64,000 nucleotides of DNA, taken from assembly GCF_009914755.1 (NCBI RefSeq), contig NC_060940.1; one strand, written 5' to 3'. Shown piece by piece: positions 3,743 to 11,789 of this stretch (positions within the stretch are counted from its first letter, which is position 1; every line of letters begins with the position of its first letter). The notes beneath the pieces are model-generated. The model saw nothing but the letters and a program-made list of their open reading frames with translations, was not told the DNA's origin and ran no database searches. This DNA is from the human T2T-CHM13v2.0 reference genome, Homo sapiens. The translations under genes and the position numbers were made by a program.

Positions 3743-4023
3743 TTTTTGTTTTTGTTTTTGGAGTCGGAATCTCACTCTGTCGCCTAAGCTAGAGTGCATT
3801 GGCGCAGTCTCGGCCCGGGTTCAAGCGATTCGCCTGCCTCAGCCTTCCGAGTAACTGGAATTACAGGCACACGCCACCACACCCGGCTAATTTTTGTATT
3901 TTTATTAGAGACCAGGTTTTGCCACGTTGGCCAGGCTGGTCTTGAACTCCTGATATCAAGTGATCCTCCTGCCTCAGCCTCCCAAAGTGGTGGGATTACA
4001 GGCGTGAGCCACTGCGCCCAGCC
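3743..4023 (-). mobile_element. AluS-type element about 94 nt upstream of TCF25 exon 8
   Basis: Antisense Alu consensus with T-rich tail. Confidence 0.92.
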
Positions 4024-4116
4024 TCCGCTGGTTTTAAATGTCTGAAAAAAAGGCATGCCTGGGAGCTGGGGCCTTGCTGAGTGCCTTTCCTCCAGGGCTG
4101 TCCTCCCTTCTGGTAG

Positions 4117-4216
4117 GTTCTGCTCCAGACGAGCCCTTACCACGTTGACTCACTCCTGCAGCTCAGCGATGCCTGCCGCTTTCAAGAGGATCAGGAGATG
4201 GCTCGAGACCTCGTAG
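4117..4216 (+). CDS. TCF25: TCF25 coding exon 8 (100 bp; [33 protein letters not shown])
   Basis: tggtag| acceptor, TAG|GTAAGG donor. Confidence 0.95.
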
Positions 4217-5068
4217 GTAAGGCAGAGCCCCCACCCCATTCCCCTCAGCTGTGGGAGCACCTCAAGCTATCAAGACAGATGCGATGGTGTAAGATGACAG
4301 GGGTTGCCAGGATATCCATGACAGCTTTATTGAGATACAACCTACGTAGCACAAAACTTACCCATTTAAAGTTTTTGTTTGTTGGTGTTTAATATATGCC
4401 ACAGCCTCCCGAGTAGCTGGGACTACAGGCGCCCGCCACCAGACCTGGCTAATTTTTTGTATTTTTAGTAGAGATGGGGTTTCACCGTGTTGGCCAGGAT
4501 GGTCTCGATCTCCTGACCTTGTGATCCACCCACCTCAGCCTCCCAAAGTGCTGGGATTACAGGCATGAGCCACCACGCCCCGCCCTCTGGCTTTTATTTA
4601 CAATGAAGTTTTCAAGGTTCATCCTCACTGTAGCGTCGATCAGAACGTCGTTCGTTTTTATGGCTTAGTAATACTCCACTGTGTGGACGGACCACATGTT
4701 GTGTATCCATCATTAGTTGACGGCCGTGTGGGCTGTTGTAAATAATAGTGCTTACGTCAGCATGCACACGCAGTCTTAGGTGGACACATCTGTGCTGCAC
4801 ACATGGACGCCTGGTTCTGTCAGGACGTGGCAGCAGTTGTGCCTCATGGTGTTGAAAGTGTTACCATGTCAAGCTCACAAGTTCTGTGGTTGAAATAAAT
4901 GCAGCGTGGCATCCAGGGTGCCCAGGGGCATGTCTGCCCTCTCAGTGTCCAGGACTCTAGTTTCGTGACCTTCCGTCCAGACCTTTCCTTGTTGTCCATT
5001 ATCAGAGGAGGGGCCGTGGTTGCTGTGTGTGGCCATGACACCCTCCCCTGGCGTCCCTGTGCCCACAG

Positions 5069-5162
5069 AGAGAGCGCTGTACAGCATGGAATGTGCGTTC
5101 CACCCCCTGTTCAGTCTCACCAGTGGGGCCTGCCGGCTGGATTACCGCAGACCCGAGAACAG
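5069..5162 (+). CDS. TCF25: TCF25 coding exon 9 (94 bp; ERALYSMECAFHPLF...RRPEN)
   Basis: cccacag| acceptor, CAG|GTGAGT donor. Confidence 0.95.
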
Positions 5163-5503
5163 GTGAGTGCAGCTGCCCTGGAGGTGACGCAGCTCCCCTT
5201 CCCTTCTCCTGCGAGTGAGGCTGGGGGAGGTGCAGTGGGCACCTCATGGCTGCCCTCCAGGGTGGACCAGGGCCCACAGGTCCAGAGTGACCCACCTTCC
5301 TCTCTCTGGGCTTAAGGATAGAGGGATGGGATTGTCTCAGCCCAGGTTTACCTTTGTCTGTGGACATGCCTGATGCTACTGTGGAGGTCAGAGTGGGAGG
5401 TCTGCTGAGCCCAGGAGTTCAAGTCCAGCCTGGGCACCATAGTGAGACCCCCATCTCTTAAAAAAATAAAAATAAAAATAAATGTTTGTGTTAGAAGTGA
5501 GCC

Positions 5504-6135
5504 TGGCTGGGCACAGTGGTTCACGCCTGTAATCCCAGCACTTTGGGAGGCCGAGGTGGGAGGGTTGCTTGAGCCCAGGTGTCAAGACCAGTCTGAGCAC
5601 CGTGGCAACATGCAGTCTCAAAACAGCATTTTTTTTTTTTTTTTTTTTTTTGAGACGGAGTCTCACTCTGTCACCCAGGCCGGAGTGCAGGGGCGCGATC
5701 TCGGCTCACTGCAAGCTCCACCTCCCGGGTTCAAGCCATTCTCCTGCCTCAGGCTCCCGAGTAGCTGGGCCTACAGGCACGTGCCACAACGCCTGGCTAA
5801 TTTTTTGTATTTTCTAGTAGAGACGAGGTTTCACTGTGTTGGCCAGGATGGTCTCCATCTCCTGACCTTGCGATCCACCCGCCTCGGCCTTCCAAAATGC
5901 TGGGATTACAGGCGTGAGCCACCGCGCCCGGCCACTACAGAACATTTTAAAAACTAGCTGCGCCTGGTGGCGCGTGCCTGTGGTCCCAGCTACTTGGGAG
6001 GTTGAGGCGAGAGTATCACTCAAGTGAGCCCAGGAGGTCGAGGCTGCAGTGAGCTGAGATGGTACCAGTGCACTCCAGCCTGGGCAGCAGAGTGAGACCT
6101 TGTCTCTCAAAAAAAAAAAAAGAAGAAGAAGAAGA
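5504..6135. mobile_element. Old + strand Alu split by an antisense AluY-type element (about 5628-5932)
   Basis: Left arm, then poly-T-led reverse Alu, then right arm. Confidence 0.8.
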
Positions 6136-9714: not shown

Positions 9715-9874
9715 GCTCATCGGAACCTGTCCCAGCTCCCTAATTTTGCCTTCTCTGTTCCACTGGCGTATTTCCTGCTGAGCCAGCAGACAGACCTCCC
9801 TGAGTGTGAGCAGAGCTCTGCCAGGCAGAAGGCCTCTCTCCTGATACAGCAGGCGCTCACCATGTTCCCTGGAG
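9715..9874 (+). CDS. TCF25: TCF25 coding exon 12 (160 bp; [20 protein letters not shown]...ALTMFPG)
   Basis: ctcgtag| acceptor, GAG|GTGAGT donor. Confidence 0.95.
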
Positions 9875-10543
9875 GTGAGTGAGCGCTGTGTCTCGCCTGG
9901 GGTAGGGGTGTGTCCTGTCAGCCGTGGGGGCTGCTCTTCCTGGTGGTGGAGGCCAGGTCCCAGTCCTTCCCCACACTTGTAGAAACATGCATTCTCTGGT
10001 AGGGCCTGCAAACCTGCCCTACCAAACCTGAAAGAGGGTCGGCTCATCTCGGAACCCGCTGCGTGCCAAGCCAGGCACGAGGAGGTGGCAGGCATCCCGA
10101 CCCCCGTGGGGCCTGTGTTCTAGAGTGCAGAGACAGAACTGGCTGGGAGGTGCGGGGCATTGGATTGTACCAGTGCTGGGGAGGAGAGCAAAGCAGGGGA
10201 AGGTCTCGGCAGCGCCGAGGTGTGGCCGAGAGGGTTGTGCTCTGCACCATGCTGGGATGCAGAATGGAGGCCTGTGCCGCCCAGATGGACTCAGCCTGCA
10301 CAGCCGTGACCCCTGACTGCATCTGGGTAGCTTCGATCCACGCACATGTGGCGGGCACAGTGAGGCTGCCACCTGGTCAGACCTCGGGGCTGACCCTGCC
10401 TGACAGCATGTGTGAAATCCCTCTTTAAGATGGGCCTCCTCCGAGGAGCTGTGAGGGGTGAGGGTGAAATCCCTCCTTAAGACGAGCCTCCTCTGAGGGG
10501 CTGTGAGGGGTGAGGGTGAAATCCCTCCTTAAGACGGGCCTCC

Positions 10544-10846
10544 GGCCGGGCGCGGTGGCTCACGCCTGTAATCCTAGCACTTTGGGAGGCCGAGGTGGGC
10601 GGATCACGAGGTCAGGAGATCGAGACCATCCTGACTAACACGGTGAAACCACGTCTCTACTAAAAATACAAAAAATTAGCCGGGCGTGTTGGCGGGCACC
10701 TGTAGTCCCAGCTACTTGGGAGGCTGAGGCAGGAGAATGGCATGAACCCAGGAGGCAGAGCTTGCAGTGAGCCGAGATCGCGCCACTGCACTCCAGCCTG
10801 GGCAACATAGTGAGACTCCGTCTCAAAAAAAAAGAAAAAAAAAAAA
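10544..10846 (+). mobile_element. AluY copy 1 (TSD AAGACGGGCCTCC)
   Basis: Full-length Alu with A-tail; 13-bp TSD at 10531-10543 and 10847-10859; TT|AAGA L1 endonuclease site. Confidence 0.95.
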
Positions 10847-11015
10847 AAGACGGGCCTCCTCCGAGGGGCTGTGAGGGGTGAGGGTGAAATCCCTCCTTAA
10901 GACGGGCCTCCTCCGAGGGGCTGTGAGGGGTGAGGGTGAAATCCCTCCTTAAGATGGGCCTCCTCCGAGGGGCTGTGAGGGGTGAGGGTGAAATCCCTCC
11001 TTAAGACGGGCCTCC

Positions 11016-11318
11016 GGCCGGGCGCGGTGGCTCACGCCTGTAATCCTAGCACTTTGGGAGGCCGAGGTGGGCGGATCACGAGGTCAGGAGATCGAGACCA
11101 TCCTGACTAACACGGTGAAACCACGTCTCTACTAAAAATACAAAAAATTAGCCGGGCGTGTTGGCGGGCACCTGTAGTCCCAGCTACTTGGGAGGCTGAG
11201 GCAGGAGAATGGCATGAACCCAGGAGGCAGAGCTTGCAGTGAGCCGAGATCGCGCCACTGCACTCCAGCCTGGGCAACATAGTGAGACTCCGTCTCAAAA
11301 AAAAAGAAAAAAAAAAAA
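11016..11318 (+). mobile_element. AluY copy 2
   Basis: Appears identical to copy 1, including the interrupted A-tail. Confidence 0.95.
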
Positions 11319-11487
11319 AAGACGGGCCTCCTCCGAGGGGCTGTGAGGGGTGAGGGTGAAATCCCTCCTTAAGACGGGCCTCCTCCGAGGGGCTGTGAGG
11401 GGTGAGGGTGAAATCCCTCCTTAAGATGGGCCTCCTCCGAGGGGCTGTGAGGGGTGAGGGTGAAATCCCTCCTTAAGACGGGCCTCC

Positions 11488-11789
11488 GGCCGGGCGCGGT
11501 GGCTCACGCCTGTAATCCTAGCACTTTGGGAGGCCGAGGTGGGCGGATCACGAGGTCAGGAGATCGAGACCATCCTGACTAACACGGTGAAACCACGTCT
11601 CTACTAAAAATACAAAAAATTAGCCGGGCGTGTTGGCCGGCACCTGTAGTCCCAGCTACTTGGGAGGCTGAGGCAGGAGAATGGCATGAACCCAGGAGGC
11701 AGAGCTTGCAGTGAGCCGAGATCGCGCCACTGCACTCCAGCCTGGGCAACATAGCGAGACTCCGTCTCAAAAAAAAAGAAAAAAAAAAA
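11488..11789 (+). mobile_element. AluY copy 3
   Basis: Same private variants as copies 1 and 2; differs by two substitutions (ggccggcacc, atagcgagac) and one tail A. Confidence 0.95.

What the first reader, a model, noticed from the sequence alone, without database searches (positions are those of the whole stretch)
3743..11789. The tandem Alu array may act as a copy-number dial for TCF25 exon 8-12 back-splicing
Seen: an antisense Alu ends about 94 nt upstream of the exon 8 acceptor (4117), and the first Alus downstream of the exon 12 donor (9874) are the three sense copies. Established: inverted Alus in flanking introns promote back-splicing, and circular TCF25 RNA has been reported (its exon content should be verified). 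Inference: the predicted circle is exons 8-12, 553 nt, and tripling the downstream partner could change circRNA yield or ADAR editing per allele. Alus inside the interval (4402-, 5628-, 6916+, 8529+) would compete for pairing.
Basis: inference. Interest (0 to 1): 0.75.

Follow-up and report, generated by a model that had tools for sequence, protein, structure and literature searches.

The report
Triplicated Alu beside circTCF25 back-splice donor
A young Alu element in intron 12 of human TCF25 has been copied three times in tandem just downstream of the splice donor used by the published circular RNA circTCF25, but that circle contains exons 9-12 rather than the predicted 8-12, and any effect of copy number on it is still untested.

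Summary
The sequence observation holds. A 472-bp unit (one sense Alu plus three 52-bp minisatellite repeats) stands 3.1 times at 10412-11880. Two units are identical over 472 of 472 bases. An antisense Alu ends 94 nt before exon 8, and exons 8-12 sum to 553 nt.

The predicted circle is off by one exon. The cloning primers published for circTCF25 (hsa_circ_0041103, PMC4971518) match window 5069-5090 and 9853-9874 exactly. That makes the circle exons 9-12, 453 nt.

The relevant upstream partner is therefore the antisense Alu in intron 8 (4397-4584). Its pairings with the three array Alus (188 nt, 90% complementary) are the longest inverted repeats between introns 7 and 12.

The "copy-number dial" is untested.
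- Only one haploid assembly is held, so polymorphism cannot be shown.
- No paper links TCF25 to a circQTL.
- A partner-choice model gives only a 1.3-1.5-fold change from one to three copies.
- Toy folds disagree with each other.

Verdict: an ordinary inverted-Alu circRNA locus with an unusual tandem Alu; a modestly interesting hypothesis.

The parts
3743..4023 (-). Antisense Alu in TCF25 intron 7. It ends 94 nt before the exon 8 acceptor.
   Evidence: sequence. BLAST 3814-4023, 81.5% to the array Alu; sub-threshold Metazoa_SRP matches on the minus strand at 3759-3887 and 3906-4022.
4117..4216 (+).
   Evidence: Hub annotation. AG/GT borders. No evidence found that it is a back-splice acceptor.
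4397..4584 (-). Truncated antisense Alu (Alu positions 2-189) in intron 8, 485 nt before the exon 9 acceptor. Likely upstream partner for the published circle.
   Evidence: 90.4% over 188 nt. I1-I3, the three longest inverted repeats, 188 nt at 90% with each array Alu; duplex -361 kcal/mol with array copies against -309 to -326 for its other full-length partners in introns 9-12 (-283 for the intron-16 Alu).
5069..5162 (+). TCF25 exon 9 (94 nt), the back-splice acceptor of published circTCF25 (hsa_circ_0041103).
   Evidence: the gene-specific part of the forward cloning primer matches 5069-5090 exactly, once in the window.
5505..6117 (.). Intron 9 Alu cluster: sense monomer 5505-5621, full antisense Alu 5628-5933, partial sense Alu 5949-6117. 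Competitors for pairing.
   Evidence: (I15).
6915..7197 (+). Sense Alu in intron 9 (competitor).
7637..7952 (+). Exons 10 (7637-7729) and 11 (7847-7952), with the 117-nt intron 10 between them.
   Evidence: Hub annotation.
8530..8817 (+). Sense Alu in intron 11 (competitor; would bracket circles ending at exon 11).
9715..9874 (+). TCF25 exon 12 (160 nt). Its donor is the back-splice donor of published circTCF25.
   Evidence: the gene-specific part of the reverse cloning primer matches 9853-9874 on the minus strand exactly, once in the window.
10412..11880 (+). Higher-order tandem repeat, 472-bp unit x3.1. Each unit is a 13-nt split motif, a sense Alu with an interrupted A-tail, and three 52-bp minisatellite repeats. 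Alus lie at 10543-10835, 11015-11307 and 11487-11779.
   Evidence: TRF. (motif map); units 1 and 2 identical at 472 of 472; the 52-bp block matches only this locus in the whole assembly, 4 of 4 matches inside the array.
12468..12897 (+). Two more sense Alus in intron 12 (12468-12604 left part, 12605-12897 full). Downstream partners that do not depend on the array.
   Evidence: (I4, I8, I10, I14).

Best explanation
One young Alu inserted into a locus-specific 52-bp minisatellite in TCF25 intron 12. The Alu and three minisatellite repeats were then amplified as a 472-bp unit to three copies by unequal exchange.

In the pre-mRNA these three near-identical sense Alus, together with two older sense Alus at 12468-12897, lie downstream of the exon 12 donor. 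Intron 8 holds a single antisense Alu (4397-4584).

Pairing between that Alu and a sense Alu of intron 12 brings the exon 12 donor next to the exon 9 acceptor. This most likely drives formation of the known 453-nt circTCF25 (exons 9-12). The array copies are the nearest and best-matched partners.

Shown: the anatomy, the exon content of the published circle, and the complementarity.
Inferred: that the pairing drives circularization, and that array copy number matters. I expect the copy-number effect to be modest (about 1.3-1.5x between one and three copies) because redundant partners exist.
For: - Array anatomy and a single insertion origin. The same split motif AAGACGGGCCTCC flanks every copy, every copy has the same interrupted A-tail, and units 1 and 2 are identical at 472 of 472 positions.
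- The published circTCF25 primers map to 5069-5090 and 9853-9874, and 453 bp equals exons 9-12.
- The three longest gapless inverted repeats in 2938-13197 are 4397-4584 against each array Alu, 188 nt at 90% (53 pairs found, 25 shown).
- RNAduplex: the intron-8 Alu pairs best with the array (-361/-361/-355 kcal/mol). Its other full-length partners give -326 (6915), -309 (8530), -310 (12605) and -283 (19475).
- Introns 8 and 12 each hold Alus of one orientation only, so no within-intron inverted pair competes there.
- Established knowledge, recalled and not read here: inverted Alus across flanking introns promote back-splicing, and within-intron pairs compete (Jeck 2013; Zhang 2014; Liang and Wilusz 2014).
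Against: - No experiment or read data here links any of these Alus to circTCF25.
- PMC4971518 (passages seen) does not discuss flanking repeats, and the word 'junction' occurs 0 times in its text.
- Every (-)x(+) Alu pair tested has a huge predicted duplex energy (40 of 40 pairs between -104 and -543 kcal/mol), so energy hardly discriminates between partners.
- About 29 more Alu pieces sit in introns 1-5.
- The toy folds are not robust. With Alus of introns 7-12 only, the intron-8 Alu takes an array copy from one copy upward and the third copy is left over. With six upstream Alus added, one copy goes to the intron-7 Alu, and the intron-8 Alu reaches the array only from two copies.
- RNA-binding proteins can drive circularization without repeats (recalled).
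Confidence: 0.5

Rival explanations
1. The intron-7 antisense Alu (3743-4023) pairs with the array to give an exon 8-12 circle of 553 nt as the main product, and yield scales with array copy number.
For: - The geometry is real: 94 nt to the exon 8 acceptor.
- Duplex with array copies is -397 to -404 kcal/mol.
- In the extended toy fold the intron-7 Alu pairs with an array copy at 1, 2 and 3 copies.
Against: - The published circle begins at exon 9, not exon 8.
- The intron-7 Alu is more diverged (81.5% against 90.4% to the array Alu).
- It pairs at least as well with 8530 (-413) and 12605 (-421).
- Its longest inverted repeat is with 12469-12671, not the array (I4).
- In the restricted toy fold it pairs with 12468/12605 at every copy number.
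- No paper found with another TCF25 circle.
Confidence: 0.1
2. The array is a neutral structural feature. circTCF25 is made with the help of the older intron-12 Alus (12468-12897) or of RNA-binding proteins, and array copy number has no measurable effect.
For: - Two other sense Alus already lie in intron 12.
- All pairs are energetically more than sufficient.
- The partner-choice model predicts at most 1.3-1.5x.
- No TCF25 circQTL is in print in the searched library (0 papers).
Against: - The array Alus are nearer to the donor (669 nt against about 2600 nt).
- They are better matched to the intron-8 Alu (90% over 188 nt against 82% over 123 nt, I1-I3 against I14).
Confidence: 0.3
3. The main effect of the array, if any, is not on back-splicing. 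It could act on linear splicing or retention of intron 12, on A-to-I editing load, or at the DNA level on neighbouring genes such as MC1R, 17 kb downstream.
For: Only by analogy. A tandem repeat in chicken TCF25 intron 1 is reported to affect MC1R (PMC13743518; title and start of abstract in the listing only). A TCF25 VNTR that differs in length between populations is mentioned in PMC11701250 (passages), but its place is not given.
Against: - No evidence at this locus.
- The spacer RNA has no unusual structure (z = -0.32).
- The nearest antisense partner for editing is 4.6 kb away.
Confidence: 0.07

Closest known systems
circTCF25 / hsa_circ_0041103 (Zhong et al. 2016, PMC4971518; passages read)
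   Different: Its acceptor is exon 9 (5069), giving 453 nt, not exon 8 and 553 nt. In the passages seen, the paper says nothing about flanking Alus or the tandem array.
Inverted-Alu (IRAlu) assisted exon circularization and alternative circularization by competing Alu pairs (Jeck 2013; Zhang 2014; Liang and Wilusz 2014; recalled, not read here)
   Same: Antisense Alus lie upstream and sense Alus downstream of the circularized exons. Several nested circles are possible.
   Different: The downstream side carries three tandem, almost identical copies made by DNA duplication rather than by independent insertions. Dependence on the Alus is not shown at this locus.
VNTRs acting as cis expression or splicing QTLs, and circQTLs (recalled as a class; PMC11701250 read in passages)
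   Same: A tandem repeat inside a gene whose length could tune RNA processing.
   Different: Copy-number variation of this array among people is not shown here. No association data exist in the searched library.
Minisatellite expansion by unequal exchange carrying an embedded retrotransposon (general mechanism, recalled)
   Same: A 52-bp repeat provides the homology. The duplicated unit is exactly the Alu plus three repeats.
   Different: I know of no named family for this. The 52-bp motif is unique to this locus in the assembly.

Membership tests
Exonic circRNA made by inverted-Alu assisted back-splicing | The back-splice joins an annotated donor to an upstream annotated acceptor with canonical GT/AG. 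| tested here: met
   AG/GT at all of exons 6-13, including 5069 and 9874 (and 4117).
Exonic circRNA made by inverted-Alu assisted back-splicing | A documented circular product for exons 9-12. | tested here: met
   published primers and the 453-bp length map to 5069-9874. This is literature evidence; no reads were examined here.
   No circBase or circAtlas access. Searches found no other TCF25 circle in print.
Exonic circRNA made by inverted-Alu assisted back-splicing | Inverted complementary repeats in the two flanking introns. | tested here: met
   I1-I3 for intron 8 x intron 12; I4, I10 and I21-I24 for intron 7 x intron 12. One search gives the duplex energies.
Exonic circRNA made by inverted-Alu assisted back-splicing | The circle is lost when the repeats are removed or their pairing is broken. 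| not testable with these tools
   Needs minigenes or genome editing.
Copy-number-variable tandem repeat acting as a cis QTL (the 'dial') | Head-to-tail copies of one unit. | tested here: met
Copy-number-variable tandem repeat acting as a cis QTL (the 'dial') | Copy number differs between people. | not testable with these tools
   Only this one assembly is held. Identity of 472 of 472 between two units fits a recent event or ongoing homogenisation but does not prove polymorphism.
Copy-number-variable tandem repeat acting as a cis QTL (the 'dial') | Copy number is associated with circRNA level. | not tested
   No data; 0 papers with TCF25 and circQTL.
Alu retrotransposon insertion | 7SL-derived dimer of about 290 nt. 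| tested here: met
   both monomers of each of the 3 array copies match Metazoa_SRP at 52.9-57.3 bits, below the gathering score of 70, as expected for Alu; 74-92% identity to dozens of other Alus.
Alu retrotransposon insertion | A-tail and target-site duplication. | tested here: met
   an A-rich tail interrupted by one G, and the motif piece AAGACGGGCCTCC on both sides of every copy.
Alu retrotransposon insertion | Subfamily (it looks AluY-like to me from recalled diagnostic bases). | not tested
   No Alu consensus library on hand. Only a relative age hint: highest CpG density of the local Alus (6.1-6.5 per 100 nt against 3.0-5.8).

The most novel reading that the evidence does not exclude
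The array is copy-number polymorphic in people. In this half of TCF25 the Alus are polarised: antisense in introns 5-9, sense from intron 9 onward. Each extra unit would therefore let one more upstream antisense Alu find a partner in intron 12.

Copy number would then not simply scale one circle. It would shift the mix of nested circles that share the exon 12 donor (exons 8-12, 9-12, 10-12), making the array a natural allelic series for Alu dosage at a much-cited cancer-associated circRNA.

The extended toy fold behaves this way. At 1 copy it brackets 8-12, at 2 copies 9-12 is added, and at 3 copies 10-12 is added. The restricted fold does not.
Probability: 0.1. Interest if true: 0.6.

Novelty: new member of a known kind. 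Interest (0 to 1): 0.3.

Why it matters
circTCF25 is cited in 242 papers of the searched library as a cancer-associated microRNA sponge, yet the passages I read say nothing about how it is made.

If the 472-bp unit varies in number between people, the locus would offer a rare natural test of whether the dose of identical downstream Alus changes back-splicing in vivo, with the rest of the gene held constant.

As it stands, the mechanism class (inverted Alus) and the circle are already known, and the expected effect is small. The value lies in a corrected map for anyone who designs the minigene or circQTL test.

Tried and rejected
- Coordinates or other TCF25 circles in print. hsa_circ_004110* with TCF25 gave only hsa_circ_0041103 (7 papers). 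'chr16 8996' with TCF25 and circRNA gave 0. 'hsa-TCF25' gave 0. Passages of PMC5799710, PMC6222276, PMC7791175 and PMC8918517 held no coordinates or exon content.
- Prior art on the dial idea. 'polymorphic Alu' with 'back-splicing' gave 1 review, not read. circQTL / inverted Alu / structural variant gave 50 papers with at least 2 of 3 terms; of the 15 listed, none is on TCF25 by title.
- TCF25 VNTR. PMC11701250 mentions a TCF25 'exon' VNTR that is longer in East Asians, without coordinates. Its one held supplementary file has 0 hits for TCF25. I cannot say whether it is this array.
- PMC10727334 mentions only SNPs.
They may hold the divergent qPCR primers.
- Earlier findings of this scan: not open.
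- Spacer structure: three 52-bp repeats fold no better than shuffles (z = -0.32; 70 of 200 shuffles fold at least as well). Rejected as a structured element.
- Rfam mir-1268, mir-3135, mir-1972 and mir-1285 matches inside Alus are all below their gathering scores. They reflect Alu-derived similarity, not genes.
- Toy MFE folds of Alu-only concatenates (A12 linkers, nested pairs only, no kinetics, no proteins) gave different partners depending on which Alus were included. The extended set used 6 of about 30 upstream Alu pieces: window places -2933, -2606, -2233, -1361, -1040 and 875. I draw no conclusion on saturation from them.
- A full-length fold of the real 9-kb pre-mRNA was not tried because it would be too slow for the script limit.
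- Loci could not be cut out.
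Full report
**Observation**

The region was read directly and scanned with Tandem Repeats Finder. A 472-bp unit stands 3.1 times at 10412-11880 (98% matches, score 2868).

A BLAST of one array Alu against the window and an Rfam scan place Alus as follows.
- The Rfam matches are sub-threshold Metazoa_SRP hits on both monomers, as expected for 7SL-derived Alus.
- Antisense: 3743-4023 (intron 7), 4397-4584 (intron 8, truncated to Alu positions 2-189) and 5628-5933 (intron 9).
- Sense: 5505-5621 (a monomer), 5949-6117 (partial) and 6915-7197 in intron 9; 8530-8817 in intron 11; the three array copies at 10543-10835, 11015-11307 and 11487-11779; and two more at 12468-12604 and 12605-12897, all in intron 12.

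The intron-7 Alu ends at 4023, 94 nt before the exon 8 acceptor. The first array Alu starts 669 nt after the exon 12 donor. Exons 8-12 sum to 553 nt, and all exon borders checked are AG/GT.

It missed the two extra sense Alus in intron 12 and two sense pieces in intron 9.

**What the array is**

A motif scan finds 52-bp repeats at these places:
- 10427 and 10479, before the first Alu;
- three after Alu 1 (10847, 10899, 10951);
- three after Alu 2 (11319, 11371, 11423);
- one full repeat at 11790 plus a partial repeat running to 11880, after Alu 3.

Every Alu is preceded by the first 13 bases of the motif and followed by the motif starting with those same bases. Every Alu has the same A-tail interrupted by a single G. 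That is the signature of one retrotransposition with a target-site duplication inside a minisatellite repeat. The Alu plus three repeats was then duplicated in tandem.

Units 10531-11002 and 11003-11474 are identical at 472 of 472 positions. The third unit differs from the second by three substitutions and one 1-base gap in the A-tail.

The 156-bp block of three repeats matches only this locus in the whole assembly; 4 of 4 matches lie in the array. The array Alus have the highest CpG density of the local Alus (6.1-6.5 per 100 nt against 3.0-5.8), which fits a young element.

The subfamily was not tested. It looks AluY-like to me from memory only.

The identity of the two units fits a recent event or ongoing homogenisation. 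It does not prove that copy number varies among people, and no second human assembly is held here.

**Which circle is known**

circTCF25 appears in 242 papers of the library. The primary paper is Zhong et al. 2016 (PMC4971518; I saw passages). It names the circle hsa_circ_0041103 and gives the primers used to clone "the circTCF25 sequence" between a splice acceptor AG and a splice donor GT as a "453bp target fragment".
- The gene-specific part of the forward primer matches window 5069-5090 on the plus strand, exactly and once.
- The reverse primer matches 9853-9874 on the minus strand, exactly and once.
- Position 5069 is the first base of exon 9 and 9874 is the last base of exon 12.
- 94+93+106+160 = 453.

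So the published circle is exons 9-12, not exons 8-12. The antisense Alu it filed as an internal competitor (4402-) sits in the intron that actually flanks the circle.

I found no other TCF25 circle in print (passages). An exon 8-12 isoform therefore remains neither shown nor excluded.

**Pairing**

The repeat finder lists 53 inverted pairs in 2938-13197. The three longest are 4397-4584 against each array Alu: 188 nt, 90% complementary (I1-I3).

The best pair of the intron-7 Alu is with 12469-12671 (203 nt, 82%). Its matches to the array are 82 nt at 82-83% (I21-I23).

RNAduplex energies:

| Antisense Alu | vs array copies (kcal/mol) | vs other sense Alus (kcal/mol) |
|---|---|---|
| Intron 8 (4397-4584) | -361 / -361 / -355 | -326 (6915), -309 (8530), -310 (12605) |
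| Intron 7 (3743-4023) | -404 / -404 / -397 | -413 (8530), -421 (12605) |

All 40 pairs tested lie between -104 and -543 kcal/mol. That is far above what is needed, so energy alone cannot choose a partner.

Introns 8 and 12 hold Alus of one orientation only. No within-intron pair competes there, which by the recalled rules of Zhang et al. 2014 favours circularization of exons 9-12 whether the array has one copy or three.

**The dial**

Three things limit it.
- Polymorphism is not shown.
- Intron 12 has two more sense Alus, so one to three array copies means three to five partners, not one to three.
- The pre-mRNA holds many other Alus. The 18 kb upstream of the window gave 38 BLAST rows. I merged these by eye into about 30 pieces, about 29 of them inside the gene, roughly 15 antisense and 14 sense.

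*Partner-choice model.* The model lets an antisense Alu choose among downstream sense Alus with weight distance^-alpha (alpha 0, 1.5, 2.2). It raises the share of intron-12 pairings by 1.30 to 1.67-fold from one to three copies, and by 1.30-1.47 for the intron-7 and intron-8 Alus.

*Toy minimum-energy folds.* These folded Alu-only concatenates and gave conflicting pictures.

| Copies | Introns 7-12 only | With six upstream Alus added |
|---|---|---|
| 0 | intron-8 Alu pairs 8530 | intron-7 Alu pairs 8530 |
| 1 | intron-8 Alu pairs an array copy | the single copy goes to the intron-7 Alu |
| 2 | intron-9 Alu also pairs an array copy | intron-8 Alu joins |
| 3 | third copy left over | intron-9 Alu joins |

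In the restricted fold the intron-7 Alu always pairs 12468/12605. The extended pattern would bracket exons 8-12, then 9-12, then 10-12.

The folds allow only nested pairs, and they ignore kinetics, proteins and non-Alu sequence. The extended set used only 6 of about 30 upstream pieces. I take them as showing that the outcome is open, not as support for either reading.

No paper in the library joins TCF25 with circQTL (0). Searches on the general idea found no direct precedent.

**Comparison and verdict**

The locus works like a standard inverted-Alu circRNA locus, and the circle itself is already known. What is unusual is that the nearest, best-matched downstream partner has been triplicated by DNA duplication inside a minisatellite.

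Membership in the class "copy-number-variable repeat acting as a circRNA QTL" fails for lack of data on two defining features: variation among people and association with circRNA level.

I rate the finding as a new member of a known kind with modest interest. The corrected map (exon 9 acceptor, intron-8 Alu, five sense Alus in intron 12) is what a follow-up experiment needs.

**Other checks**

The RNA of the 52-bp spacer folds no better than shuffled sequence (z = -0.32). The Rfam microRNA matches inside the Alus are all below their gathering scores.

Noticed in passing
window 5069-9874 (exons 9-12 joined): The published 453-nt circle is exactly 151 codons. The TCF25 coding frame runs across the back-splice junction with no stop codon in four rounds and has 4 in-frame Met codons, so it is an endless open frame on paper. 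The exon 8-12 circle (553 nt) is not a multiple of three.
   Followed up: partly
window 16405-19097: A 2.7-kb C-rich minisatellite (period 14/21/35, about 77-194 copies, 75-77% matches) begins 3 nt after the TCF25 exon 16 donor at 16402. It might be the population-differentiated 'TCF25 exon VNTR' of PMC11701250, but no coordinates were available.
   Followed up: no
window 7346-7583: A 40-bp repeat x5.9 (88% matches) ends 54 nt before the exon 10 acceptor at 7637.
   Followed up: no
window 5613-6145: A full antisense Alu (5628-5933) and a partial sense Alu (5949-6117) lie almost back to back in intron 9 (I15: 121-nt arms, 75%, 291 nt apart). This local hairpin is a more likely ADAR substrate than the array.
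   Followed up: no
window 1-21624 and L001/L002: In the window part of TCF25 the Alus are polarised. All 4 antisense copies lie before 5933, and all sense copies lie from 5424 onward. Introns 1-5 upstream mix both orientations.
   Followed up: partly
window 44154-44518: A 41-bp repeat x8.9 at 97% matches lies inside TUBB3, between the exons at 43709-43819 and 44970-46338.
   Followed up: no
literature, not the window: A 2026 paper reports a tandem repeat in chicken TCF25 intron 1 associated with MC1R activation (PMC13743518; title and start of abstract in the listing only). The human array lies about 17 kb upstream of MC1R.
   Followed up: no
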